Shown here: positions 1,768 through 50,941 of the stretch, piece after piece | How positions within the stretch are numbered: the first letter of the stretch is position 1 | How the letters are laid out: every line of letters begins with the position of its first letter | DNA from: Naegleria gruberi | Lineage: Eukaryota | Reading direction: 5' to 3' (one strand) | Assembly (NCBI GenBank): GCA_000004985.1 | Contig: GG738862.1 | Length of the DNA: 64,000 bases | The notes under the pieces: generated by a model | Told to the model about the DNA's origin: nothing | The model's database searches: none | The model's input: only the letters and a program-made list of their open reading frames with translations | Translations under genes and position numbers: made by a program

Positions 1768-4221
1768 TTACTGTGAAGGTTTTTCCTTTTTGATCATGTA
1801 AAAATTCAATTCATAATTCTTTGAGTTTTCTGTGAATAAAAATCCAATAGGAATACTAGTGAAAGTACTCTTCTTCTTATTATCCAGCTTTCCTATTACA
1901 GTTTGAGTCTTGTTCTTTTGATTTTGAGTACAAGATAATCTAATTGTAACTGTTTCATTTTCCAACAATTCCAAATTTCCCAAATAAATGCAAATATTCA
2001 ATTGTGTGCTCATGGATTGGATTTGATCCCTTGTCAATGTAATAGTTCTTGTATAAATATCAGCATGTGTTGAAATTTTACGATTCCAATAGAAAAAGTC
2101 TGTCACTGCATTGAATCCTTCAATAATAACTCCAAAGTGTTGGTCAACAACTGTGAATTGTGATTCGGAATTTGGACTCAGCTCTTCATTCTTATTGGGG
2201 AAAACATCAGAGGTGGACATTCTCTTCTTATTTGGCGAAATTAACTCAATTTCATTGGTAGTTGCCTTTTCTTTCATTCTATTTTCAATCTTAATGTTAC
2301 CTTTGTGTGAATCAACTTCAACCAACACGACACATGGCTGGAACTTTGATGAAACAATAAAGTCATCAAGTCTATCTGCATCTATTTGTCTCACATTAGA
2401 ATCATCAATAGCAAACCATGATCCAAGCTTCTTGTTATAAACGAGGCAAATATAATGTCTTCCATAGTAACAAATAATGGAAGAAACGTGTCCCATTACT
2501 TCAATATCACTACCATTACAATTCAATCTAAATATTTCGTGTAGTTTGATTTGTTTGATTTTAAAATAACTCATAAATTCCAAAATATCATCCTCTGATA
2601 TGATGTCTCTATTCCAAGAGAATGAGAATGATGTGACAGCTGGGAAAGCTTGGAAAATGTGCTTTTGTGAATCAGATATTTCTTTGCATGATTCACAAGT
2701 TCTGTGAAAACTCTCAATAGTTGATCTCAAAGCTCCCTCAAAGCTTAAACTTGGATTTTCTCTTTTTTTCTGCACAAATTCACATGATGAAATGCACCAA
2801 TTAGTTGTAGTATAATTATGTGGATCAGAGAATTTGTTACACTTGGAGCAAACATAAAAATCCGTAACATAAAAATCAAAGATCGGTATTTGAGAATACT
2901 CCAAAGAGTTGTTGATATCCTCAATAATTGCTTGCTATTCAATTGTCAATATTGATAAAAACGATGAGAAACTTACAAAAACCTCTGAGGCATCATCCAT
3001 ATGCTTGAGTTGGAATTTAGAATCCTTATTGTGAGCAAATGATAAGCTATTTCTAACCAGGTTTGGATCCAATATCGAATTTTCACTGTATTTAAAGTGT
3101 GTAAATAAATTTTGGAGGGAGCAATAAACACACGATTCAAAACTCTTATGTTTGTGATTTTTAGGATCAATTGATAGGAATAATTCTCTAAATATTTCCA
3201 AATTCCACAAACTCTGAATCACAACATTTAAAAAACAATTATATTCACCCATAGGATTTGATAATCCTTTGAGAGCTGCTTTTGATTTCTGATTTGCAGT
3301 TGATGTCACATTCGAAGTAGATAAAGGTTGATTCTCAGCAGGTAGGTTGACATAGGTTGCTCTTTCATTTGGTGTTAGAATATCAATCACCTTATTAGCA
3401 AGTTTTGTTATTGGACTTGGTGAAGGTGGTGAATTCTTCTTATTGGAATTATTGTGATTCATTGTTGAAATACTTGGTGCTCTCCTTTGATCATAATTTG
3501 ATTCCTGTTGTGAGCTGCTCATTAAATTACTATTAATACTCTGATTGAGTGCAGTTGTGGTTGCAGAGAAGGGAATAGTTTGACTATTTGGTGAAGTATT
3601 ATATCTTGGTGAGGCTGAAGGAATTGTACTGTTATTACTGCTGCTACTATTGCTATTATTATATATTAAATTATTTGCTGATGACGATGATTGAAGATGA
3701 TTATTGTACATGTTAGTTTGTTGTTGATTTTGTTGTTGTTGTTGTTGATTGAAGGAATGAAGATAGTTTTGTTGGGTAGGAACGAGCACTTGTTGTTGAA
3801 GATGATTTGGGTTTTGATAGAGAATTGGAACTTGATCAATCACTAAAGGCTGATGATTATTATTATTTGGAGGAAGAATGACAACTTGTTGGGGAGAATT
3901 TGTTGAATTGTTATTGTTAGTGTTCATCATCATGGTTGGAGGTGAAACTCTTTGGATTGGAACAGTTTGTTGGATCGGATGTGGTTGTGGTTGAAGGTTA
4001 GGAGAGGTTTGTTGGCCATGAATCATTTGTTGTTGTTGTTGTTGATTATTCATCACAATCAGGTTATTATTATTACTATTGGGTGTTAGTGTTCTTGTTG
4101 ATTGATTCGGAAGAGGAGGTAATTGAGTTGTTTGTTGTTGTTGAGGTTGTTGAGGATGAGCGTGAGCATAAATCATCCGAACTGGTTGCTGTTGCTGTTG
4201 TGGTTGTTGTTGGGGATCCAT
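1768..4221 (-). CDS. Ubiquitin carboxyl-terminal hydrolase (USP/UBP family) with an N-terminal poly-Q/poly-N low-complexity region. Two exons, intron about 2935..2975 (41 nt).
   Basis: Cys-box GEYNCFLNVVIQSLW in exon 1. C-terminal USP motifs (YICLVYNKKLGSWFAIDDSNV) in exon 2. Splice GAGGTTTTT|GTAAGT...GAATAG|CAAGCAATT joins the two ORFs in frame (phase 0). (CAA/CAG)n tracts encode Q runs. Confidence 0.8.
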
Positions 4222-4821: not shown

Positions 4822-5455
4822 TTAAACTATGAATCATTAGAGAACAATTTACCATCAGACAACATACAATTAGACTGAACAACAAACACACGAGAAACAT
4901 CAACCAATAGTAATATATTCTAAATCTCTAGGAAATCCAGTTCATTCAATCCATTGAACAAACCACGGATGAAAGCCTGTAAATAAATAATTTATCTCAT
5001 AAGAAATAATCGGAAAGTTTTTCATACTTTCATACAACAACAATAATCATACAATGATGAATTGGATAGAGGAATAACCCACTTCTCCGCTTCTTCTTGA
5101 AAACACCACCATCAAGAAATTGTATTGAAAATATCGGAAGACGGAAGCACTTACTAATACATTATCTGACCAGCAAACATTTCATCCATCACTATTCGTT
5201 GTTCGTTCATCATGATATTATGATGTAAAGAGACAATGGACGACTCGACTTGAAAAAATTACGACAAACACTCATCATTGGCAAGTCTATTGTCGGCTTG
5301 TGTTGATCATCTATTTGTATTATATATTATTATTGGTTGGAGGATTCTTTTAGATATAATACACTCCCGGAGTTCATCATCTAAATTTCAAGGAGGAGGA
5401 ACAAACACAATTAATTTATTCTAGTTTGAATTTTATAGTAGAATTAAATAATATA

Positions 5456-7054
5456 ATGGGGAATTCATCATCAAATCGTGAAATTACACTAGTAGAGGAA
5501 AAGGATGTTATTAGAGTTGATTTTGAATTTCCAACTCCAATAGTTGGCGTTGATATGTCTCCGATTCTTCATGTCAAGTATCCTGGAACTTGTATTATTG
5601 AATGGTTTCGAGAGACAGAGGAATTAGATGCTCCTAAACGAGCTTCAATGTCTATCAATCAGAATGATCATTCTATAGACGATTCCGATAGTATTTCTCT
5701 ATATAATGGGTTATGTTATGTTCCAACAAATGAGGATTTAACCTATAAACTTCGTTTAAAAATCATCTTATTTGACGATGAATATTACTTACAGACAGGT
5801 AAATGTTTTTGTAAGGAAATAATAACAAAACCTGTCATTCAAATGCCATCATCTGTTCCAAGAAGAACATTAATTATGAACCCAGATGAGAACATTCTCG
5901 ATTATAGAGCTAAAACTAGGTTATTACTCACCTATTACAAACCAGATTTTTCATTTTCTGTTGGAAGTTACACCCTATCATATATTAAGCATGTTCTACA
6001 TCCTGTTACAATACCCGAATTGGATTTTATCAAATACTCTGTGTATAGAAGAAGATTAATTTATAGAGAAATAATACAATCGGATGTGGATGTACTAGCT
6101 TTACAAAATATTTCTTCAGCGGAATATCATGAATGGAATTTGGATTTATCAAAGATTGGTTACTCTAATATCAATCATATTACAGAAATTGAAACAGGAA
6201 ATTGCACCTTTTATAAGCGATCGAAGTTTAGTAGATTCAACGACACTAAAGTAACAGAATTGGAATATGACGATTCTGTATTCAAGACACTTGTCAGTAC
6301 CCTTATGGAGATTGGAAACTTCACTGAGGATCAAATCAATTTGCAACAATTGAAAAGCATTGCTTCCCTCCATTCGGAAAGGATGAAGAGTGGTCTGCCA
6401 TCCATTTGTAGTCTAGTCGAATTTGAGATGAAAGATAATGCAGAAATACTCAAAGTATTCAATCACGAGCTCAATGAAGACAAAAAAAACACCAAACTTA
6501 GGCCAAATATTCTCTTTGACCAAGTCAGCGTTTTATCCATCAATTTTTCTTTGCATTCACTGTATGTTATTGAGCAAGAAAGTCTAGGTGAGGAGGTCAA
6601 TATGAAATTCCTCCTTCTTCAGATAATATCGTTATTCAGGAACATACGTTCATATATTGCATCACGAGTTCAGCAACAACCCAAGTTGCGTCTAGGTATC
6701 ACCTTTTGTGGTAATATTGGTACAAATACCGAAGATACTATCTTACACAAGTATATTGAAAATCAATTTGGTTTCACCGATCCTTACAAGGTTATAACAG
6801 GAGATGAATTTAAATTCTTGTCCAATTTTGATCATACCAAGAAGTATAATAGTAATCATATTTGGTTTTCGAAAGAGCATTTCCAAACCACTTCTATTGT
6901 GTCTGGCACTGTTCAAGTTCCTCAATTATCAATTGTACCTCAAGACGATTCTGAAAATGAGTTGGCATTCCCTAATGAAAATTTTGTGTGTGAGGAACCA
7001 ATGCTAAAATGCGAAATTCAATGGATTGATCCGTATGAAAAACTGGATCAATAA
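5456..7054 (+). CDS. Endonuclease/exonuclease/phosphatase (EEP) family protein, similar to 2',5'-phosphodiesterase 12 and CCR4/nocturnin deadenylases. Predicted N-myristoylation (MGNSSS).
   Basis: LALQNISSAEY...FYKRSKFSRF and ITFCGNIGTNTED resemble EEP motifs of PDE12/CCR4 (recalled alignment). The listed ORF begins at a TTG. The first ATG, at 5456, gives MGNSSSNREI. Confidence 0.55.
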   Translation: MGNSSSNREITLVEEKDVIRVDFEFPTPIVGVDMSPILHVKYPGTCIIEWFRETEELDAPKRASMSINQNDHSIDDSDSISLYNGLCYVPTNEDLTYKLRLKIILFDDEYYLQTGKCFCKEIITKPVIQMPSSVPRRTLIMNPDENILDYRAKTRLLLTYYKPDFSFSVGSYTLSYIKHVLHPVTIPELDFIKYSVYRRRLIYREIIQSDVDVLALQNISSAEYHEWNLDLSKIGYSNINHITEIETGNCTFYKRSKFSRFNDTKVTELEYDDSVFKTLVSTLMEIGNFTEDQINLQQLKSIASLHSERMKSGLPSICSLVEFEMKDNAEILKVFNHELNEDKKNTKLRPNILFDQVSVLSINFSLHSLYVIEQESLGEEVNMKFLLLQIISLFRNIRSYIASRVQQQPKLRLGITFCGNIGTNTEDTILHKYIENQFGFTDPYKVITGDEFKFLSNFDHTKKYNSNHIWFSKEHFQTTSIVSGTVQVPQLSIVPQDDSENELAFPNENFVCEEPMLKCEIQWIDPYEKLDQ

Positions 7055-11450: not shown

Positions 11451-14009
11451 TTAAAGAGAAATCTTCCATTCAGCATTGAATAATGTCTTTTGTTGAGCTG
11501 GGAGAGACCAGGACCACAAAGTTCTTTGATTTCTTTGTTTCCAATGGCAGTCTACAATCCAAAACTTGCAATCTCTCCAAGCATAGTATGCTTCCAAATT
11601 GGCAGACATTGGTTGAGTTTGTAATTGAACATCAACTCCTACAGTACAGAGAGTACCATGGACATAACCTTGAGGAACTAAAGCTGCTTGGAATGAAGCA
11701 TCCAATTCAATACCACCCTTAATAATGAGCAAGTCGATATCAGCTTGACCATCAATAGTAATTTGAGCAGAAGGAATAACTTCAACCATAGCGCTCAATT
11801 GAGCATCACAAATTTGCCATCCCCATTCAGCATCCAAACCAAGAGTAGCACCAGCACTGAAAGTGATTGGAACAATTGAAACCCAAACAGTGTATTCATA
11901 GTTGAATCCATTGCTAGTATGATAAAGTTGATAAGTGTGCAAGTTACAATCAATAAGTTGAGTTGGTAAAGTTTGTTGATAAACAACCTTGTCGAAAACA
12001 CTCAAGAAGATGGTATTGTCTACAGTTTGTGCTCCTTGCTTACCATATGCAGCCTTGGCATCAAAAATACTGGCTTGTTTGGCACCTAAAACATCAACAT
12101 TGGCATAGGCTTCAATTCTTCCATCATAGTTAAAGTTTGGATGATTACAATCAAAGTTGGTTCCAACAAAGAAATCACCGTGCAAATCAACAGAGACAGT
12201 ATCACCACCAAGGTTATAATCTTTGGTAATTGAACGATTGTATGGGTATGGAGAGTCATCGAAAGTGAGCTTACTTGATGGAATGGAATACTTCTTGGCA
12301 AAGGCCTTCATAACCATTCTGAGAGCAGATCTTACTTGTTGATTCTTTTCAGTGGCCAACAATTTAGAAACGACTGGAAGAACATCTTGTGGCTTGAAAA
12401 TGGTTTCAGCATTGTAGATGGCACCGAGAATAGAGACAGCAATTGATGAATCAGATTCCTTTGTAAGAAGAGCAGAACGATCGAGCATTTCGAGCAAGGT
12501 GGAGGCAGCGTCCTTCTTGACTGAAGCTGGAGTAGTTGATCTAGAAACCAAAGAACCAAAGGCTAATAATGCAGCATCTCTGAGAACTGGATTAGAATCA
12601 TAATATTTACCAAACATGGAATAAATCTTACGAATGGATGCAGCAGTTGGTTGCTTCATACCAGTGTTAGCAGACAAGAGAGAGTGGAAGAGCAAATCAT
12701 TGGCGATCTTTGGTTCAATACCATCGAATGATGCTTCAATAAATTCAGAGAAGAATAAATCTTCAAAATTCTTGGCAGAAGTGAGTAAGAAAAAGACCTT
12801 ATCTCTCATTTGCTTATTGTTGGCTTGCTTAAGGTTGGTAATATACTTCATCAAGGTAGTCTTGGCACTGGCCAAAGTTTCAATAACCTTTGGAGCAGAG
12901 CTGTCAAAGAACTTGGCGAGCTTCTTCAAATCCTTGTGATGAGCAATTAATGGCTTTGGTGAGTCCAAAATGGTTGAGATCATTTGAATAGGATCTTCCT
13001 TGAGCATTGGCAATTCATAATTAATTGACTTCAATGAAGCAATGGTACTCTTGGCAACTTCGAACAATGAACCCTTCTTGAATGAGGCATTGTTGATTGG
13101 AGAAACCTTGTTGAAAGCAGTAATAACTTGTTGAGATTGCAAAGCAATATTCAAAGAACCAGCACTTCTCATATTCATATCAAAACCAGTACTATTGGTG
13201 AGTCCCAACTTGGCACCAAGTTGCATGGAAGCAATGTTGGTGATTTGAGAGGTAGTAGTAGAGGCAATATAACCATTTGGATGGACAGCAGTTTGAGCAG
13301 TAGCTTGAATGTCGACATTGTTGGCAGTAACTTGAGCATCACTGAATGATCTAAAGTTTTGTTGAGTGAATTGCTTGTTAATATTCAACATGGCAGCTGG
13401 AGCAGCTTGATAGGCACTAGTGTGGACACCAACACAATCTTGTTCCAAAATTGTGGCAGTACTTTGGGTGACATAGGTCTGGAAGGCACTAATAGCTGAC
13501 AATTTAACATTGACAAAATATGGAGAATCGCCATCTTGATAATAAACTTGAGTAATTTCACCTGTTGGAAGTTGAATAAAGTACATGTCATAACCAAGAG
13601 CAGAACTATCACTAGCACCAAAAGTCAAGGTTGTCTTGGCATTGGCAATCTTGGTATCCTTGTTAATCAAACTGACACGAGAAGCACGAGCGTGTTCACT
13701 AGTTTGACCAACACCAACTTGTGTATTGAACATGTTAGCAACAAAAACAAATGATCCATCCTTTTGAATTTCATTACATCTGTGAACATAGACAGAGTCG
13801 AGAGTAGAAGTGGTTCCATTAGTAAGAGAGTTACTCTTTTGAACATTTCCTCTGGCATCAACAGTACCATGAAGATTAAAAACAAATTCCTGACCGACCT
13901 GGTAGGATAATTGTGAAGGGAGTGCTGAAATGGCTTGAACCATCATGATGATCGCCATCAAGACAACAGCAACACCACCATACAAACCGACGCGATTAAA
14001 GTTCTTCAT
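11451..14009 (-). CDS. Secreted large-lipid-transfer-protein-like protein (vitellogenin-N / MTP-like architecture), 852 aa
   Basis: Signal peptide, then about 300 aa of beta-rich N-sheet, about 300 aa of alpha-helical HEAT-like region (LLTSAKNFEDLFFSEFIEASFDG…AALLAFGSLVS) and a beta-rich C-sheet. Length and order match microsomal triglyceride transfer protein and vitellogenin N-domain. Assigned from motif and architecture memory only. Confidence 0.5.
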   Translation of the reverse strand: MKNFNRVGLYGGVAVVLMAIIMMVQAISALPSQLSYQVGQEFVFNLHGTVDARGNVQKSNSLTNGTTSTLDSVYVHRCNEIQKDGSFVFVANMFNTQVGVGQTSEHARASRVSLINKDTKIANAKTTLTFGASDSSALGYDMYFIQLPTGEITQVYYQDGDSPYFVNVKLSAISAFQTYVTQSTATILEQDCVGVHTSAYQAAPAAMLNINKQFTQQNFRSFSDAQVTANNVDIQATAQTAVHPNGYIASTTTSQITNIASMQLGAKLGLTNSTGFDMNMRSAGSLNIALQSQQVITAFNKVSPINNASFKKGSLFEVAKSTIASLKSINYELPMLKEDPIQMISTILDSPKPLIAHHKDLKKLAKFFDSSAPKVIETLASAKTTLMKYITNLKQANNKQMRDKVFFLLTSAKNFEDLFFSEFIEASFDGIEPKIANDLLFHSLLSANTGMKQPTAASIRKIYSMFGKYYDSNPVLRDAALLAFGSLVSRSTTPASVKKDAASTLLEMLDRSALLTKESDSSIAVSILGAIYNAETIFKPQDVLPVVSKLLATEKNQQVRSALRMVMKAFAKKYSIPSSKLTFDDSPYPYNRSITKDYNLGGDTVSVDLHGDFFVGTNFDCNHPNFNYDGRIEAYANVDVLGAKQASIFDAKAAYGKQGAQTVDNTIFLSVFDKVVYQQTLPTQLIDCNLHTYQLYHTSNGFNYEYTVWVSIVPITFSAGATLGLDAEWGWQICDAQLSAMVEVIPSAQITIDGQADIDLLIIKGGIELDASFQAALVPQGYVHGTLCTVGVDVQLQTQPMSANLEAYYAWRDCKFWIVDCHWKQRNQRTLWSWSLPAQQKTLFNAEWKISL

Positions 14010-14368: not shown

Positions 14369-14587
14369 ATGGAAGAACGAGAAAGAAGGATGAAACTCTT
14401 AATGTTCAAACATGAAATTTATTCTTCGTCATCTTTGCGACAATCGGAGTTGAAGAGTCTTATACAACAACGAATTAAAAATTATTTAAAAAGTAGAATT
14501 GAAAGGAAGCAACCTGTTGATTTGGATCATCCAGAGAATAGGGAATTTATTGATGAATTGATGAAGGAATTTTTCAAATTGGATTAA
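14369..14587 (+). CDS. Hypothetical small protein (72 aa)
   Basis: Short ATG ORF in an intergenic gap. Helical and charged, with no confident family. Confidence 0.25.
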   Translation: MEERERRMKLLMFKHEIYSSSSLRQSELKSLIQQRIKNYLKSRIERKQPVDLDHPENREFIDELMKEFFKLD

Positions 14588-14674: not shown

Positions 14675-17600
14675 TTAAAAATCCATTTCATACAAATCAG
14701 TTAACATGTTCATGATAATTTCAAAGGATGGTCTTGCACTTGGTTCGGTGGCCCAACTCATTTTCATAATATTAACATAACCATCGACTGCGGAGAGGAG
14801 TTGATGAGCATTACGAGGATTCATTTCTCGTAGAAACTTTTCACACCATGTGGTCATTTCATTCCAATCAACGAATGGTATGATTGGTCGTTTTTCTTGA
14901 TTAGCTACAAAGAAGAGCAAGTTGAAGGCCTTGATTTTCTTTTGATCCAAACTCACATGATTGAAATAATTAATCTTTTCACATGTATCATTCCAATAAG
15001 GGGTTTCCTCAAAGAAGAGTTCCCACATTATTATTGCATATGCATAGACATCCTAAATTGAACGAATAATATTAATATTTTAGAATAGATTGCTAAAACT
15101 TACAATTTTCTTGGCATTCTCTTTGGAAAGTGCGGATGAGGTCTGTTCATTATCTTCTTCAAGAATTAATTCAGGACACCTTTACAAATATTGAAATAAT
15201 TAAATGGATATTCTAATATTATTACTTACATGTATAATAATGTTCCAATATTTGCAGTTAATGATGTTGTCAAGGTATGATTTGAGACTGTTCTAGATAA
15301 TCCAAAGTCACACACTTTTGGATTATCATTATAGTCTAGAATAATATTAGCAGGTTTTAAATCTCTGTGAATGAGATAGTTAGGTTGTAATCCATGCAAG
15401 TATTTCATCCCATTTGCAATACCAATCAGAATTTTTAGCTTTTCCTTCAAAGTCTTCTTGACAGTTCCTTTCTTCATATTCTTGATAAGTCTCTCCATAC
15501 TTCCATTCTGAGCCAACTCTACAACCATGTAGGATTGAGTTTCAGAAATACAAATTCCATAGAATGAAATAATATTCACATGTCTGAGTTGTATCAGAAC
15601 CATTACTTCCTTCTCGAACATGTCATTACTACCCTCCTTTCGAACAATGGTTTTCACAGCAACATCCATCATATTCCATTTGGCTTGATAGACAGATCCT
15701 GAGGCACCTTCTCCAATTTTCTTTTCAAATTTCAGTTCATTTGCTGGAATTATGTAATTGGCATTCTTTTCAATATCCACAGAATGAAGGGATCCATAAT
15801 CAGAGTACGAGACATCATAGGTAAGTAGTTTTTCTTCGATTTCCTTCTCTGATTTTTCTCGAACATAGACTTTCTTGATCTTTTTGTAAACTCTCCAAAT
15901 TGAAAAGGCAAGGAATGAACAAGTGCATGAGCCAATAACGATACCAATAATCATCACCAATATTGAGGCAACAACAATGACTGGTATGACCTGACTATAG
16001 GGAAAACCAAGTTGACACAGTCCATCCTTAATGATATAATCCACCTTGCAAGGAACCAAGTGAACACGTACAAATTTAGTTGTTGCAAATGGGAGTCTTA
16101 ATTTGAGAAAAAAATAATTATCTTTTTTGAGATCTATGGATTCTTTCTTGAGTGAAATGTGAAATCCAACAATATTCGAAAAATTGGTCTGGTTTACATG
16201 CACATCAAAGTTTGAGCTCGATAAAGTATCGTTGATTTCTATAATGGCACTTTCTAACAATACAGGTACATTATTATTTACACCATCAGTCATTTGAGAA
16301 AAGTAAGCAGATACTACTTGCCCCGGATAGACATAAATTGATTCATAAGTGTCATCTGATTTCAATTCCAATCTATCTAGTGAAAGATTGTATTGCCTTA
16401 TTGAGGTGGCAATATCATTTCCGTATTGATCTGCACTATTATATTGAACATCAGGCATATTTTCAATAAAAGCATACCCTTCAATGAATATTCCTCCTCC
16501 AATAAATGCAGAGTTCTCTTCCATCATAGGAGAGTATATTCCAATATTTTTTCCATTTGTGAAACAGGCACCACCTCTAAGGGCTGAATTGAGTAGAAAT
16601 GTTGATTTCGTCATAAAGCCATGCGTATTGATTAGTGATAGGGCTCCTCCACTTCCCTCAACGAAATGACCAGACTTGAAACGCTGTTCCTCCGCTGGTG
16701 ATAGAACAATTCTATTATTTACAAAACTAGTAAGAAGTAAACTAGCTGCCAAAGTAGTATTTCGAATATAGAGTGCACCACCTGCCAGTGTTGAATTATT
16801 TGAATGAAAAAGTGTCGATTCAATTCTAACTGCATAATTTCCATCCATTAATACGGCTCCTCCATTTCCATTTTTTGCTGTGTTATTGATAAATCGTGAT
16901 CCTAGAATGCATGAAGATGTAGAGACAGAGAGGAGTGAAATGCTACCTCCACTCTTGAATGAAGTATTGTTGAAAAATCTGGAGTTTTTCACAACAACTA
17001 CATCAGAAGAATCAATAAGTATAGCACCTGAATGTTTGGCCTTGTTTTGTTGAAAAAAGCAATCAACCACTTTGACCTCCTGACACAGATAGAGAGAAAC
17101 CACTGATTTTGCATTCATTGAATAATTGTCTATGAATGCAGAACGTACAAAATTGACTGTTCCCACTGAAATCCAATCTATCCATCCATACTCTCTCTTT
17201 CCAGAAAAATTACATTTGGTTATAAATATCCGAAAGACAAGGTTTGCCTTAATAGCTGAAAGTTCGGCTGGGTCGCCGGCATCTTCCTTTGGATTCTTTC
17301 TAATATGATTCCGTAACGGAACATATGTAAAATTGCAATGATTAATATCTGCCTGAACGACAGATCGCAATGTCAACTGTGAATTCTTTGAAAATTCGAA
17401 TTGGCAATACGAAAACTCGACACTTTCTGCATGTGCAACTAATATAGTAGGACCAGCACTATCTACATCCAATTTGGCTGAAAATTTGGTCCTATTAAAC
17501 AATACCCTTTCAGCTCCCATTATCATTATATCTGAATCAGTTACACAATTTTCCATTTCAATATTTCCATAATTCATCTCAATAACCGATCCAATAATTC

Positions 17601-18405
17601 TCGAATTAGAAAGTCTAAATCTATAGTCCATACTACTAAAAATTTTCACCTGATAAAAATCAACATTTGAAGCTTCCATACATGGCGTAACCATATTAAT
17701 TGCCTTCATATTATGAAACCGTATATAGGAAATAACACTTGATGAATCAGTTATAAAACCATCTGTATCATAAAAGCATCTAATGAGTCGAGGTGAAGCA
17801 TTGTCAAAACTCTTCACTAACACATTAACTCGAATAAATTGCCGAATCGATCCATCAATGGGTGGAACTCGAGCAAGACATGCCCTTCCACCACTTCTAT
17901 CCAAATCAGCTAGATCAGTCATTAGAATTATATTAAACAAAATTTCAAAGCATTCACCCTTTCTTCCTTCCCTAGTAGAAATTGAGGATAATGAAACCAT
18001 GGCAGCTGACATGTCCTTACATGCATTCTCAGTGGTTGATCCACAATCAAGAATTGATGTATAATTTTCCAAATTTACATGAATATCAAAACTAATTGGA
18101 ATATAGGAAAAACATGTTTTCACTTTTGTAAAATTTCCATTCGTTCGGTTTAATCCCAAATTAGAATTTGTTTCGTCTAATATTCTATTTAATCTTGTTG
18201 GTTTATAATTTTTAGAGTACCTAGGGGTGTTGTATTTTAGAGAAGATGATCCTTTCAATTTTTTACTTTCTCTAATGGTTTCTATTAGTTTCGTTTTATG
18301 TACAAAATTCGATTTTTCAAATTGTCGTATTTCCAACTCCGAAAAAGTAGAAAAACAATCATCATTTGCAATATTTAAACTACTAAATATTAATAAAAGT
18401 AACAT
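14675..18405 (-). CDS. Receptor-type tyrosine-kinase-like (TKL) Ser/Thr kinase: signal peptide, ectodomain of Pmp-type (GGA[ILV]/FxxN) right-handed beta-helix repeats, one TM, cytoplasmic kinase. Three exons, introns about 15180..15229 (50 nt) and 15053..15103 (51 nt).
   Basis: Kinase motifs GEGASGSVY, VAVK, HRDLKPANIIL, DFGLS, then YM|CPE and DVYAYAIIMWEL recovered only after splicing a 76-nt micro-exon (15104..15179). Ectodomain has about a dozen repeats with FxxN…GGA(I/L/V). TM is VIPVIVVASILVMIIGIVIG. The likely start is the internal Met giving MLLLLIFSSLNIAND. Confidence 0.8.
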
Positions 18406-18715
18406 TATTATCGTTATCCTAAAAAATTGTTCCGAGACTAGTTTCGTCCTTGATGTTCTTTCGTATAAGAAATAGAAAGTTGTGTTTCGGTGATGGTAAC
18501 TTTCTATTTCTTCTCGTCCAAAGAACCTCCAATTCATAGTTTCCTTTCCATAGAGTTGATGTTATTTTTTTAATGTCTGTTGTCGAAAGTGTCTGACGTC
18601 TGTTTTAGGATTTCTTCCAATAAGAAATGCTCACACTCAAAAACAAGAAACAAAGATACAAAGGAAAAAAGATATTTTCCAAAGAATCTTGAACAATCAT
18701 TTAACAAAAAAGGTG

Positions 18716-18786
18716 TAGGAAGACAGGGAATCGAACCCTGATCTTAGGAACCACAATCCCATGTTCTACCACTGAACTATCTCCCT
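18716..18786 (-). tRNA. tRNA-His (anticodon GTG)
   Basis: Reverse complement: acceptor AGGGAGA/TCTTCCT, D-arm GTTCAGTGGTAGAAC, anticodon loop TTGTGGT (GTG), 4-nt variable region, T-arm CAGGG-TTCGATT-CCCTG, discriminator A. No encoded G-1, as in eukaryotes. Confidence 0.85.
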
Positions 18787-35173: not shown

Positions 35174-35522
35174 TATATGATTGTTTTGTTTTTCTTTTTG
35201 ATGGTATTTCTTGATAATTTACGAGCTATTTATTTTTAGCATTCAGTTCAAAATATTGAATCTTCATAGTAATTGAACCTGACAGTTCCATGTTGAACCA
35301 TATGGTTACAAATTCTTAGAAATCGTTGACTTAAAAAAGAGGGTTATCACTTAACTATTGCATGAATAAAGGACAACAAACACTTTGGAGGTTGAATCTG
35401 ATGATTCAATTGTGAAAAGAAAAGTACAAGATAAGGAAGGAATAACCAGATCTTGCCTTGCGATTCAACACTAAATTTGCCAACCACTCTCAAAATATCG
35501 TACAAAAACAAAAAGAGTAAAA

Positions 35523-35642
35523 GACTACAGCACCACAGGTTCCCAAGTTGTCTCCAACCTCAGTACTGATGTGGCTCGACGATGCTTAACTTCTCAAATC
35601 GGACGGGATGAGGTGCATTCATCGTGATATGGCCGTAGCCAT
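35523..35642 (-). rRNA. 5S ribosomal RNA (eukaryotic type), 120 nt, followed by a TTTT terminator
   Basis: Reverse complement ATGGCTACGGCCATATCACGATGAATGCACC…CCGATTTGAGAAGTTAAGCATCGTCGAGCC…AGTACTGAGGTTGGAGACAACTTGGGAACCTGTGGTGCTGTAGTC matches the 5S consensus block by block (recalled: CTACGGCCATACCAC…GAAGCTAAGCAG…AGTACTTGGATGGGAGACC…GGTGCTGTAG). Helix I pairs GGCTAC with GTAGTC. Confidence 0.85.
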
Positions 35643-48041: not shown

Positions 48042-50941
48042 TTAAGCAATCAATAGTATGGAAAGTAAAATTGCAATCAAAGAAAGTGAAGTTCCAATTC
48101 TATTCGAAACATTTCTTTGATTTCCAGCAATCAACTTATTCATACTACTCACTTCAGAAACCTGATTAATATCCAACGATATTTTCCCAACAGCTCTCAA
48201 AGTATCTGGACGATTCAAATCCTTCATTGAACCCAAATCGAAAATCGAATAAATTGGAATTCCTTTCGAATTTAAACTTCTGCTATCAATATAATCTCCA
48301 TTAATTTCAGAATACAAACTCAATGTAATGGTCAACAGCTTATCATTCAAAAAATCCAAAGTTTGTTTTGGGATGAGTGTGAAATTTGTTGTCATTACTC
48401 CGCACACATCATCCGAACCAATGACAATTTCAGTTGAGTTGAAATAGAGATTGAAAGCTTGAGGTGGAATTCCAGTAAATTGGCACGATTGACCAAAGGT
48501 TGAATCTCTACATTGGCATTGATTGTAATCAACGCATTTTCCATGTCCACCACAAACTCTGTTCAAATCTTTTGAGGAAATTGAGTCACATGTTGTTTCA
48601 GAACAATCGCTTCCTGTCCAATTATTTTGACATTGACAGGTAGAGGACATGGTGCATTTACCATGAGAAGAACAAACATTTGGAGCATTGAATGGAATTC
48701 CATTACAATAAATCATTTCTCCTTCACATCCTGAAAAATCTGAGCTACTGAACTTTCCTTCTGGACATTTGGAGCAATTCTTCCAATCTTCATTGAGAAA
48801 TTCACCTAAATCACATGTGGTTTCTAGTTTTCTTATTTGAGTTGTGAAATGTCCGTTTATCTGATCTAAAAAGTAAATTTCATTATATCCTTTTATGGAA
48901 CCCCGAAGCTCAGGTGTATGGAAATTTGTTAAAGTTCCAACAATGCCACTTGGAGTATATCCAGGATCGAAATCACCATAGACAGTTTGTAAAAGTCCGG
49001 TCTTTTTCGAAACCTTTCGAATTCTATTGTCTTCTGAAAATATAATATCTCCATAAGGAAGAACTACAACTGAAATTGGAGAGATTGCTGCATTGGTTGC
49101 CTTAATTCCATCATGTCCATAATCGGTAGCATCTTTGGAACCTGCAACTATGGTGACTAAACCATTTGAACTAATCTTTTTGATTATACGATTCTTGTAA
49201 TCAGAAACGTAAAAGTCATTTTGTGGACTAATTGTAAATGTTGAACCAGATCCAAGTTGTGTCTGATTGGCAGAGATATTAGATGAGAAAATATCAGAAC
49301 CACCTCCTGCAACCAATCTAATTCGTCCACTTTCGAATGTGAAAATATATGATTGAGCTGAAGCAGACATTAAGAAATAAACTTGACCATTATATGGAGA
49401 AACCATCAGTCCAGATCCCTGACAAACACAAGTTTCCAATTGCAAATCTCCATCCTTAGGAATGCAATGTTGTCCATTTCCAGCGAAAATTGAAATTTCC
49501 TTCGTTTGAGTATTCATTTTGTAAAGCAGTGAATCAGTTGTGAAATAGACAGCTGGTTCAGCATTTGAAGCTGCAAAATTGTAATAATTAATTGCCTTGT
49601 CTCCAGTGAAAAAAGTCTCAACAATTGGAAGAGAATTCACGTCAGCAGATTGAGCAGTTTTTCGGTAGAAATTAATAGAATTGAAATACCATTCATTCGA
49701 ATCAGATTTGTAAACTGCTTTGACAGATCGACTGCTATCAATTTTAGAATAAGCAGCTGGAATACCATCAATGTAATATCCCTTTGATCCAGCAATTGTT
49801 TCAATCTTCCAGTCATTTCTATTAGCAGAGGCCGAGTTTACAATTTTTGCAATTCTTCCTTGTTTTTCTGAGATATACAATTCATTGGTAATTGGAGATA
49901 ATTCAATGTGATAAGGAGAAAGGAACAGCTTGTTAGTGTTCATGCCTTGATCTGGTCGAGGTGATGTATAAATACTTTGAATTCCAGCAGTATTAGAGGT
50001 GATATTACTCATTGCTCTAATATATCCACTTTGGTCAACCTTCATTAGAAAAGTTTGAGAGCCAAAGAAGATTTCCCCAGTCTTGTAATTGATAGTAAAA
50101 GTTCCTAAAGAACCAGATACAGATGTGGCCAGAGCGTTATCTTGTGGAAATCCCTCAAAACCATTTCCCAAGACATTGACCAGTGAGCCATCTTTAATTC
50201 TGAAGAGAGTGTCATGGTAAGCTTCATAGAAATAAATAGTTTCATTATAGACAGAACACGCAGAAATGTCTCTGAATGCAAGGTTTTGTAAATTGGTAAC
50301 AGGTCCCTCAAAATTGAAATATTGTCTTTTATAGAAATTTCCAAAATTAGTATCTAAATATTAAATATAGAAATAACTTACTTGCCACCACCTGCAACAG
50401 TATTAATAATCCTATCTCTAACCCTCTTTATCTTTCTCGATTCTGCAATAATCAAATCACCATTCGCTAGATCAATATCTAAATACCAAGGATTTTCAAG
50501 TTTTGCTTGATTTGCAGGAATATAATTACCATCAAGATAACCACCTCCAGCAAAGAGTGTTTTAGTTTTGGTTGATGCACTGTATTTGTAGACCAAACCT
50601 TGAGAAATATAGTAAATGTCAGATGTCTCTCCATCAACTGTGAAATCCATTGTTTGGAAAATGGATTCGTTTGGAACTGCATCTGTTATTTGACCAGAAG
50701 TTAGATTTAATAGTTTAATGGAGACATAGGTTGTTACAGTTTCGGTTGTAAAGTAAACTAAAGTTTCGTCCTTTGGGTGAAACATAAACTTTTGAGGAAG
50801 GATGACATTATACATGAAAGGAACACTTTCATCAGTTGAGCCAACAATTGTGGAAAGCTTTCGTGTAATACTTGCTGTTGAAATATGCAGAATCAAGAGC
50901 AGTAGGATAATGGTTGTAGATACGAAAGGTTTAGCTTGCAT
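48042..50941 (-). CDS. Type-I membrane protein with NHL-like beta-propeller repeats and a cluster of EGF/tenascin-type Cys-rich modules (teneurin-like module content). Two exons, intron 50326..50381 (56 nt).
   Basis: Exon 1 carries the signal peptide MQAKPFVSTTIILLLLILHIS and NHL-type blades. Phase-2 GTAAGT…AAAAG splice into exon 2. The C-terminal region has C-x-C-x(n)-C patterns (…GKCTMSSTCQCQNNWTGSDCSETTC…GHGKCVDYNQCQCRDSTFGQSCQ) and TM IGTSLSLIAILLSILLIA. Confidence 0.7.

What the first reader, a model, noticed from the sequence alone, without database searches (positions are those of the whole stretch)
14675..18405. Receptor kinase with Chlamydia-Pmp-like beta-helix ectodomain, recovered only after splicing a 76-nt micro-exon
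A complete receptor-like TKL kinase is present. Its ectodomain is built from FxxN / GGA[ILV] repeats, the signature of polymorphic-membrane-protein (Pmp) right-handed beta-helices. The kinase YMCPE and DVYAYAII motifs are split by two introns of 50-51 nt that flank a 76-nt micro-exon. A bacterial-adhesin-type beta-helix fused to a eukaryotic kinase is an unusual receptor architecture, possibly a carbohydrate or microbe sensor.
Basis: partly seen in the sequence, partly recalled or inferred. Interest (0 to 1): 0.6.

Follow-up and report, generated by a model that had tools for sequence, protein, structure and literature searches.

The report
Naegleria receptor kinase with Pmp-type beta-helix
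This is a real, already annotated Naegleria gruberi gene for a single-pass membrane kinase whose outer part is a beta-helix built from the same repeats as chlamydial surface adhesins; this domain combination is conserved in three Naegleria species but I found no description of it in the literature.

Summary
On the minus strand, 18405..14675, three exons separated by GT-AG introns of 50 and 51 nt give an in-frame 1209-aa protein. The public N. gruberi protein named 'tyrosine kinase' uses exactly these junctions and differs only by a start 44 codons upstream. The 76-nt exon is therefore not a new recovery. Its peptide is conserved in the N. fowleri and N. lovaniensis homologues.

The protein has a hydrophobic N-terminus, an ectodomain of about 790 aa, one transmembrane helix and a TKL-like Ser/Thr kinase with all catalytic motifs.

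It is not a chlamydial Pmp: it has no middle domain and no autotransporter barrel. It only shares the repeat class.

Cytoplasmic parts are 64-69% identical between species and ectodomains 25-27%. I found no evidence of a large expansion, although the counts are lower bounds.

The ligand is unknown and carbohydrate or microbe sensing is inference. I rate it a new variant of a known kind, of moderate interest.

The parts
14675..18405 (-). Whole coding region of the receptor kinase: 3 exons, 1209 aa, stop TAA at 14677-14675
   Evidence: Spliced translation is in frame. It is identical to public N. gruberi protein P0001 apart from the N-terminal 44 aa.
18406..18537 (-). Possible 44-codon N-terminal extension used by the public annotation (ATG at 18537); not conserved in homologues
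   Evidence: ORF list, P0001 sequence, no conservation in this part of alignment A1.
15230..18405 (-). Exon 1: signal peptide, ectodomain, transmembrane helix, and the kinase up to ...GTLLYM (first two bases of the Met codon)
15180..15229 (-). Intron 1, 50 nt, GTAAGT...AAAG, phase 2. The N. fowleri orthologue has an intron at the same position.
15104..15179 (-). Exon 2, 76 nt, encoding (M)CPELILEEDNEQTSSALSKENAKKI: the APE-equivalent motif plus an acidic insert between subdomains VIII and IX
   Evidence: the peptide is conserved in homologues
15053..15103 (-). Intron 2, 51 nt, GTAAGT...TTTAG. The N. fowleri orthologue has no intron here.
14675..15052 (-). Exon 3: DVYAYAIIMWE... kinase C-lobe and stop codon
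18367..18405 (-). Hydrophobic N-terminus MLLLLIFSSLNIA, a probable signal peptide
   Evidence: Read from the sequence. Homologues have a hydrophobic stretch at the same place. No signal-peptide predictor was available.
16459..17841 (-). Predicted right-handed parallel beta-helix (aa ~189-649)
16456..17136 (-). Core of the Pmp-type repeats: about 9 rungs of ~25-28 aa, each FxxN...GG[A/S/G]hydrophobic (aa 424-650)
   Evidence: Motif counts against shuffles. TIGR01376 above its cutoff. Pfam Chlam_PMP just below its cutoff. This is the segment that matches thousands of Chlam_PMP/Beta_helix proteins.
15991..16455 (-). Membrane-proximal ectodomain module (aa 651-805), all-beta, lower confidence, with conserved YPGE and a C...DGxC pair next to the membrane
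15895..15990 (-). Single transmembrane helix VIPVIVVASILVMIIGIVIGSCTCSFLAFSIW, followed by the basic stretch RVYKKIKK
   Evidence: Highest hydropathy window in the protein, 3.23 at aa 806. There are 18 N-x-S/T sequons before it and 3 after.
14678..15735 (-). Protein kinase domain (aa 891-1209, interrupted by the two introns): GEGASG 898, VAVK 915, HRDLKPAN 1013, DFG 1033, CPE 1060
   Evidence: Pfam Pkinase 2.5e-45 and PK_Tyr_Ser-Thr 8.7e-44. Best PDB relatives are CTR1, TAK1, ZAK, DLK and RAF. Motif positions.

Best explanation
The locus encodes a type I single-pass receptor Ser/Thr kinase of the TKL type in Naegleria gruberi.

Shown: one ORF joins four parts. They are a hydrophobic N-terminus, an ectodomain of about 790 aa rich in N-glycosylation sequons, one transmembrane helix, and a kinase with every catalytic motif intact. 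The ectodomain core is a right-handed parallel beta-helix of FxxN/GGA (Pmp-type) rungs. The whole architecture is conserved in N. fowleri and N. lovaniensis.

Inferred mechanism: the elongated beta-helix binds an extracellular ligand along its surface. The ligand would be a polysaccharide or surface molecule of prey bacteria or of the substrate, or another copy of the receptor. Binding clusters receptors. The kinases then phosphorylate each other on the Ser/Thr-rich activation loop (DFGLSRTVSNHTLTTSLTANIGTLLYMCPE) and signal to cytoplasmic targets, for example those controlling phagocytosis, motility or differentiation.

The ectodomain diverges fast while the kinase is conserved, as expected for a ligand-binding module on a constrained signalling module.
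For: - Continuous ORF from ectodomain into kinase.
- In-frame splice model identical to the public protein.
- Pkinase at 2.5e-45.
- TKL relatives CTR1 (1.4e-33), TAK1, ZAK, DLK and RAF.
- Catalytic motifs all present.
- Transmembrane helix and sequon asymmetry of 18 against 3.
- Repeat motifs far above chance.
- TIGR01376 above its cutoff.
- Homologues pass Pfam Chlam_PMP, and one also passes Beta_helix.
- The ectodomain has 4178 HMMER relatives. The non-Naegleria ones among those scanned are Chlam_PMP/Beta_helix repeat proteins.
- Same architecture in N. fowleri FDP41_010393 and FDP41_004375, and in N. lovaniensis C9374_008982, C9374_006513 and C9374_012121.
- Cytoplasmic identity of 64-69% against ectodomain identity of 25-27% to the N. 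gruberi protein.
- A flanking gene of the N. fowleri FDP41_010393 locus has a homologue 7.6 kb downstream of the N. gruberi gene, on the same relative strand.
Against: - There is no transcript, protein, localisation or ligand data.
- This protein falls below the Pfam Chlam_PMP gathering score (18.4 against 20.6).
- The AF2 model rests on a 5-sequence alignment. AF2 is reported to over-predict beta-solenoids for repeat sequences (bioRxiv 10.1101/2024.10.30.621056, seen). This is mitigated by homology to Pfam Beta_helix/Chlam_PMP proteins.
- Signal-peptide cleavage and the true start codon are unresolved.
- Trichomonad Pmp-like proteins were found mainly in ER, Golgi and lysosomes rather than at the surface (PMC6701047), so surface exposure cannot be assumed.
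- Many beta-helix proteins are enzymes, so ligand binding without catalysis is an assumption.
Confidence: 0.8

Rival explanations
1. Adhesion or phagocytosis receptor rather than a sensor of soluble ligands. The beta-helix acts like a bacterial adhesin and sticks to prey, substrate or other cells. The kinase couples that engagement to the actin and phagocytic machinery, as proposed for some Entamoeba transmembrane kinases.
Against: There are no functional data. This reading is a specialisation of the main explanation rather than an exclusive alternative.
Confidence: 0.3
2. The ectodomain is a membrane-tethered polysaccharide-degrading enzyme (lyase, hydrolase or epimerase), and the kinase reports or regulates that activity.
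For: The strongest structural neighbours are capsule depolymerases, GH87 and GH110 glycosidases, PL6 lyases and alginate epimerases.
Against: Sequence identity to these enzymes is only 8-12%. No glycoside hydrolase or lyase Pfam family was hit. Most invariant ectodomain columns are the structural F, N, G, A and C residues of the repeats and disulfides, with no evident catalytic acid cluster. Sequence relatives are Chlam_PMP-type repeat proteins, not enzymes.
Confidence: 0.08
3. The model is an annotation artefact that fuses two neighbouring genes, or the gene is a decaying pseudogene, so no such receptor exists.
For: No transcript evidence could be examined here. The exact protein was not on record in the contig index. 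The start codon is ambiguous.
Against: The ectodomain, transmembrane helix and two thirds of the kinase lie in one uninterrupted 1103-codon ORF. All kinase motifs are intact. The same fusion occurs in at least five genes of two other species, with 64-69% cytoplasmic identity to this protein.
Confidence: 0.03

Closest known systems
Chlamydial polymorphic membrane proteins (Pmps, type V autotransporters)
   Same: Both have alternating FxxN and GGA[ILV]-type tetrapeptides, each pair forming a rung of a right-handed beta-helix. This is the repeat class of Pfam PF02415 and TIGR01376.
   Different: The Naegleria protein has no Pmp middle domain and no autotransporter beta-barrel. It is anchored by an alpha-helical transmembrane segment and carries a cytoplasmic kinase. 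It is eukaryotic and interrupted by spliceosomal introns.
Trichomonad Pmp-like surface proteins (PMC6701047)
   Same: Both are eukaryotic proteins with N-terminal FxxN/GGA repeats followed by a single C-terminal transmembrane domain.
   Different: Trichomonad proteins have a short cytoplasmic tail with endocytic NPx[YF] motifs and an ATPITK motif. Both motifs are absent here, and the tail is replaced by a juxtamembrane segment plus kinase domain of about 370 aa.
Entamoeba histolytica transmembrane kinases (TMKs)
   Same: Both are single-pass receptor kinases of amoeboid protists, with a lineage-specific ectodomain and a Ser/Thr/Tyr-type kinase.
   Different: Entamoeba ectodomains are rich in CXXC motifs, and none is present here. 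The Entamoeba family has dozens of members, whereas here only 1-3 per species were detected. Any relationship between the kinase domains was not tested.
Plant receptor-like kinases (RLK/Pelle, e.g. BRI1, CERK1) and other TKL kinases (CTR1, TAK1, MLK, RAF)
   Same: The overall logic is the same: a repeat ectodomain, one transmembrane helix and a TKL-group kinase. The kinase domain is most similar to CTR1, TAK1, MLK and RAF.
   Different: The ectodomain is a beta-helix, not LRR, LysM or malectin. The kinase scores better against the cytosolic MAP3K-like TKLs (1e-33 to 1e-29) than against BRI1 or CERK1 (about 1e-23). This points to an independent fusion rather than shared ancestry of the receptor.

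Membership tests
Chlamydial Pmp autotransporter family | Repeated FxxN and GGA[ILV] tetrapeptides (PF02415 / TIGR01376) | tested here: met
   There are 9 FxxN and 6 GG[AGS]x motifs at a spacing of ~27 aa, reached by 0 of 5000 shuffles. TIGR01376 scores 18.9 bits against a cutoff of 15. Pfam PF02415 scores 18.4 bits, below its gathering score of 20.6, but homologues score 30.9-41.7 bits.
Chlamydial Pmp autotransporter family | Repeats form a right-handed beta-helical passenger domain | tested here: met
Chlamydial Pmp autotransporter family | Pmp middle domain and C-terminal autotransporter beta-barrel (PF03797) | tested here: not met
   No such Pfam hit at E<=1. The C-terminus consists of an alpha-helical transmembrane segment plus a kinase.
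TKL-group eukaryotic protein kinases | Complete ePK catalytic core (GxGxxG, VAxK, HRD, DFG, APE-like) | tested here: met
   GEGASG 898, VAVK 915, HRDLKPAN 1013, DFG 1033, CPE 1060. Pkinase 155 bits.
TKL-group eukaryotic protein kinases | Closest similarity to TKL families rather than to TK or other groups | tested here: met
   The top PDB sequence hits are CTR1, TAK1, ZAK/MLT, DLK, TNNI3K and RAF. The catalytic loop HRDLKPAN is of the Ser/Thr type, so the public name 'tyrosine kinase' is doubtful. No formal kinome phylogeny was made.
Single-pass (type I) receptor kinases | N-terminal signal peptide | tested here: inconclusive
   The hydrophobic stretch MLLLLIFSSLNIA is visible in the sequence, but no predictor was available and the start codon is ambiguous between 18405 and 18537.
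Single-pass (type I) receptor kinases | One transmembrane helix between the ectodomain and the kinase, with the ectodomain facing out | tested here: met
   Hydropathy maximum of 3.23 at aa 806-824, followed by the basic stretch RVYKKIKK; 18 sequons before and 3 after. Topology and localisation are inferred.
Single-pass (type I) receptor kinases | Ligand-dependent kinase activation at the cell surface | not testable with these tools
   This needs experiments.
Trichomonad Pmp-like proteins | Short cytoplasmic tail with NPx[YF] endocytic motif and ATPITK motif | tested here: not met
   Neither motif is present. The tail is a kinase.
Entamoeba TMK family | CXXC-rich ectodomain | tested here: not met
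   There is no CxxC among the 18 ectodomain cysteines.

The most novel reading that the evidence does not exclude
An ancestor of Naegleria captured a prokaryotic Pmp-type beta-helix adhesin module by lateral transfer. The closest repeat relatives are bacterial and methanogen proteins. The module was fused to a TKL kinase, creating a Naegleria-restricted, fast-evolving pattern-recognition receptor that senses prey or microbial surface polysaccharides and drives phagocytic signalling. This would be an independent invention of the plant RLK or animal PRR logic in Discoba.
Probability: 0.15. Interest if true: 0.65.

Novelty: new variant of a known kind. Interest (0 to 1): 0.4.

Why it matters
Receptor kinases with lineage-specific ectodomains have arisen repeatedly in plants, animals, Entamoeba and oomycetes. 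A Pmp-type beta-helix as the sensing module has not been described in anything I could search.

If the protein is a functional surface receptor, it would give Heterolobosea, including the pathogen N. fowleri, a defined candidate for sensing prey, host or substrate. It would also show a prokaryote-style adhesin fold used as a eukaryotic signalling input.

Practically, the public name 'tyrosine kinase' looks wrong and the ectodomain is not reflected in the protein names given by the sources.

Tried and rejected
- Word-indexed protein searches returned only the protein itself, prokaryotic repeat proteins, or distant Naegleria kinases of 31-42% identity. They missed the true homologues. The family came only from the exhaustive HMMER search.
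- The ectodomain has no sequence match in the PDB.
- tblastn of the ectodomain and of the kinase against the window found no paralogue in the 64 kb.
- A scan of JGI metagenome contigs with conserved family peptides gave only distant kinases of 22-33% identity.
- The exact-protein contig look-up for P0001 found nothing on record.
- The afdb50 fold library was unavailable, so I could not ask whether other eukaryotes have beta-helix receptor kinases.
- Literature searches found no description of this protein or architecture. I tried Naegleria with Pmp, with receptor kinase and beta-helix, with transmembrane kinase, PF02415/Pmp-like, and the locus tags. The cross-kingdom TMK survey PMC10463195 mentions neither Naegleria nor Pmp. 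The N. gruberi genome paper is not held.
- I rejected membership of the chlamydial Pmp family, the Entamoeba TMKs and the trichomonad Pmp-like proteins because defining features are missing.
- I rejected the reading that this is a large immune-type expansion, because only 1-3 genes per species were seen. These counts are lower bounds.
Full report
**What is in the sequence**

The window is AT-rich, with 30-39% GC. The region 14675-18537 on the minus strand holds an 1103-codon ORF (15226-18537) that ends in a stop straight after ...GTLLYM. A 117-codon ORF (14675-15028) lies downstream of it.

- exon 1, 18405-15230
- intron 1, 15229-15180 (50 nt, GTAAGT...AAAG)
- exon 2, 15179-15104 (76 nt)
- intron 2, 15103-15053 (51 nt, GTAAGT...TTTAG)
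- exon 3, 15052-14675

This gives a 3630-nt in-frame CDS of 1209 aa. The junctions read ...LLYM|CPELILEEDNEQTSSALSKENAKKI|DVYAYAIIMWE....

**Identity of the locus**

A search with the ectodomain returned one protein at 100% identity. It is P0001, 1253 aa, named 'tyrosine kinase [Naegleria gruberi]' in NCBI and UniRef, on a 502-kb contig.

Its sequence contains exactly the same two junctions. It differs only in starting at the upstream ATG at 18537, which adds 44 residues. So the window is N. gruberi nuclear DNA, and the exon structure, including the 76-nt exon, is already the public gene model.

The extra 44 residues are not conserved in homologues. Both starts place the same hydrophobic stretch (ITII)MLLLLIFSSLNIA near the N-terminus. 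I could not decide between them.

**Support for the splice model without transcripts**

The homologues found later carry SPELILEEDSE..L(T/M)RENATKIDVYS(Y/F)AIIM in the same place. In the N. fowleri orthologue the stretch after SP is contiguous with the downstream exon.

That orthologue has an intron at the same position and phase as N. gruberi intron 1, inside the Met codon (AT|G). It has none at the position of intron 2. This is comparative evidence only.

**Kinase**

Pfam gives Pkinase at 2.5e-45 and PK_Tyr_Ser-Thr at 8.7e-44.

All catalytic motifs are present: GEGASG 898, VAVK 915, HRDLKPAN 1013, DFG 1033 and CPE 1060.

The best solved relatives are:
- CTR1 (1.4e-33)
- TAK1 (about 1e-29)
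- ZAK/MLT, DLK, TNNI3K and RAF
- BRI1 and CERK1, weaker at about 1e-23

This is the TKL group. The HRDLKPAN loop is of the Ser/Thr type, so the database name 'tyrosine kinase' probably just reflects the PF07714 hit.

**Membrane topology**

The strongest hydrophobic window of the protein is at aa 806-824 (Kyte-Doolittle 3.23), within VIPVIVVASILVMIIGIVIGSCTCSFLAFSIW. It is followed by the basic stretch RVYKKIKK.

There are 18 N-x-S/T sequons before this helix and 3 after it, and 18 cysteines lie in the ectodomain.

The ectodomain, the helix and two thirds of the kinase lie in one uninterrupted ORF. A false fusion of two genes is therefore very unlikely.

**Ectodomain repeats**

Residues 424-650 read as about nine units of 25-28 aa, with some longer. 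Each starts with FxxN (FIDN, FQQN, FFNN, FINN, FHSN, FVNN, FLLN, MEEN, FIEN). Most also contain GG[A/S/G] followed by a hydrophobic residue.

Observed counts against residue shuffles of the ectodomain:

| Motif | Observed | Shuffle mean | Shuffles reaching the count (of 5000) |
|---|---|---|---|
| FxxN | 9 | 4.3 | 115 |
| GG[AGS][ILVAC] | 6 | 0.18 | 0 |
| GGx...FxxN pairs | 4 | 0.017 | 0 |

Model-based tests:
- Pfam Chlam_PMP scores 18.4 bits, just under its gathering score of 20.6.
- NCBIfam TIGR01376 POMP_repeat scores 18.9 bits against a cutoff of 15.

**Relatives of the ectodomain**

An exhaustive HMMER search against 1.84 billion cluster representatives gave 4178 hits at E<=1e-3.

Only four representatives align over the whole ectodomain (query aa ~92-791). 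All are from Naegleria:
- N. fowleri FDP41_010393 (9e-65)
- N. fowleri FDP41_004375
- N. lovaniensis C9374_008982
- N. lovaniensis C9374_006513, with its near-identical copy C9374_012121

With one exception, these proteins carry Pkinase and score above the gathering score for Chlam_PMP (30.9-41.7 bits); one also passes Beta_helix PF13229. The exception is the scanned representative of the FDP41_004375 cluster, a 976-aa Logan model. It shows only Chlam_PMP in Pfam and a weak kinase match. The 1152-aa NCBI model of that gene has a strong kinase match.

All other top hits align only to query aa ~370-650, in many repeated stretches. Those I scanned are giant Chlam_PMP/Beta_helix repeat proteins from prokaryotic metagenome contigs. 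One cluster includes a Methanobacteriaceae MAG protein. The word-indexed profile search added Methanosphaera, Methanobrevibacter, Lentisphaeria and Planctomycetota proteins and a few eukaryotic ones.

Among all 299 proteins fetched, only Naegleria-named proteins and a few unnamed metagenome or Logan fragments have a kinase domain.

**Structure**

AlphaFold2 on the 711-aa ectodomain, with the 5-sequence family alignment, gave mean pLDDT 77.1 and pTM 0.72. The model is almost all-beta, with pLDDT mostly 80-98 over model residues ~100-480.

The DSSP string shows three short strands per repeat. The F of FxxN sits in a strand with the N at the turn, and a strand begins right after GGA.

- Klebsiella and cyanophage tailspike depolymerases
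- GH87 and GH110 glycosidases
- the alginate epimerase AlgE4
- the Vag8 autotransporter passenger

Caveats:
- The alignment is shallow.
- AF2 is reported to over-predict beta-solenoids for repeats (bioRxiv 10.1101/2024.10.30.621056, listed).
- Independent sequence homology to PF13229 and PF02415 proteins argues that the fold call is nevertheless sound.
- The last ~150 ectodomain residues (aa 651-805) form a lower-confidence beta module, with conserved YPGE and a Cys pair next to the membrane.

**Evolution of the family**

Against the N. gruberi protein, the cytoplasmic part is 64-69% identical and the ectodomain 25-27%. Among the N. fowleri and N. lovaniensis members the figures are 71-80% and 30-35%, leaving out the near-identical pairs.

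FDP41_010393 is the best-scoring homologue. One of its flanking genes has a homologue 7.6 kb downstream of the N. gruberi gene, on the same relative strand (window 6490-7043). It is therefore the likely positional orthologue.

The next-nearest Naegleria kinases are only 31-42% identical. The full-length ones among them are 498-530 aa, too short to carry this ectodomain. The family is therefore discrete.

I saw no paralogue within the window and no second N. gruberi member among the best 150 representatives. Because that library is clustered at 50% identity, copy numbers are lower bounds. No large expansion is evident.

**How it probably works**

*Shown.* The architecture is hydrophobic N-terminus, beta-helix, stalk, transmembrane helix and intact TKL kinase, and it is conserved in the three Naegleria species examined.

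*Inferred.* The beta-helix binds an extracellular ligand. Clustering then brings the kinases together for phosphorylation of the Ser/Thr-rich activation loop and downstream signalling.

Beta-helices of this fold typically bind polysaccharides or act as adhesins, and Pmps are adhesins (PMC10715098, PMC11166332). A prey, microbe, substrate or carbohydrate ligand is therefore the most natural guess, but nothing here tests it.

An enzymatic ectodomain is less likely:
- No GH or PL family was hit.
- Identity to the enzyme neighbours is 8-12%.
- The invariant columns are mostly structural.

**Comparison with known systems**

- It shares the repeat class and fold of chlamydial Pmps but lacks their middle domain and autotransporter barrel, so it is not a Pmp.
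- Its closest eukaryotic analogue on the outside is the trichomonad Pmp-like family: repeats, a transmembrane domain and a short endocytic tail (PMC6701047). The tail motifs are absent here and a kinase takes their place.
- In logic it resembles Entamoeba TMKs and plant RLKs, but it has no CXXC ectodomain. Its kinase sits nearer to CTR1, TAK1 and RAF than to BRI1 or CERK1, which suggests an independent fusion.
- PMC10715098 notes Pmp-type repeats in bacteria, Methanobrevibacter and Trichomonas but contains no occurrence of the word kinase.
- None of my literature searches found this architecture or these locus tags.

**Verdict**

It overstates the splice 'recovery', because the model already exists, and it overstates the kinship with Chlamydia, because only the repeat class is shared. 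The sensor function is speculative.

I rate it a new variant of a known kind: a protist receptor kinase with a previously undescribed ectodomain type. Interest is moderate.

Noticed in passing
L001 gene coordinates 3073-3086 and 3268-3274 (locus coordinates 6073-6086 and 6268-6274): In the N. fowleri orthologue FDP41_010393, the only GT-AG exon chain that reproduces the annotated protein contains a 14-nt exon encoding VCDFG (the DFG motif) and a 7-nt exon encoding SP of the APE-equivalent motif. These are far smaller than the 76-nt exon in N. gruberi, where both stretches are contiguous with their neighbours.
   Followed up: partly
The extension is not conserved in homologues, so the true start and the nature of the signal peptide are unresolved. 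A tRNA-His gene lies only ~180 nt further upstream (18715-18786, minus strand).
   Followed up: partly
window 14675-18537 (-), public name of P0001: The database name 'tyrosine kinase' is probably a misnomer. The catalytic loop is HRDLKPAN (Ser/Thr type) and the best relatives are the TKL kinases CTR1, TAK1 and RAF.
   Followed up: yes
window 5426-7054 (+) and L001 8492-9811: A gene with no Pfam hit is conserved near the kinase gene in both N. gruberi and N. fowleri (tblastx up to 154 bits). The genes between them differ: TAP42 in N. fowleri, and a PI-PLC-X protein, an M24 peptidase and a vitellogenin-N-like protein in N. gruberi.
   Followed up: partly
window 30162-30254 (+): A 91-93-nt tRNA gene (Rfam 48 bits) for which ARAGORN could not call a normal anticodon. 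It may be an intron-containing tRNA.
   Followed up: no
window 35522-35640 (-): A dispersed, full-length 5S rRNA gene (Rfam 105 bits) sits among protein-coding genes.
   Followed up: no
window 22187-24835 (-): An 882-aa ORF made of 18 DUF4116 repeats (648 bits).
   Followed up: no
window 26921-30106 (+) and 48042-50171 (-): Two large ORFs with teneurin-like NHL repeats; the second also has teneurin-type EGF domains. They may be further surface or secreted repeat proteins in the same neighbourhood.
   Followed up: no
window 11451-14009 (-): The gene immediately downstream of the kinase encodes an 852-aa protein with a hydrophobic N-terminus and a weak Vitellogenin_N (lipoprotein N-terminal) match (34.7 bits).
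   Followed up: no
window 14369-14587 (+): A 72-codon ORF in the 660-bp spacer between the kinase gene and the vitellogenin-like gene, with no Pfam hit. Whether it is a gene is unknown.
   Followed up: no
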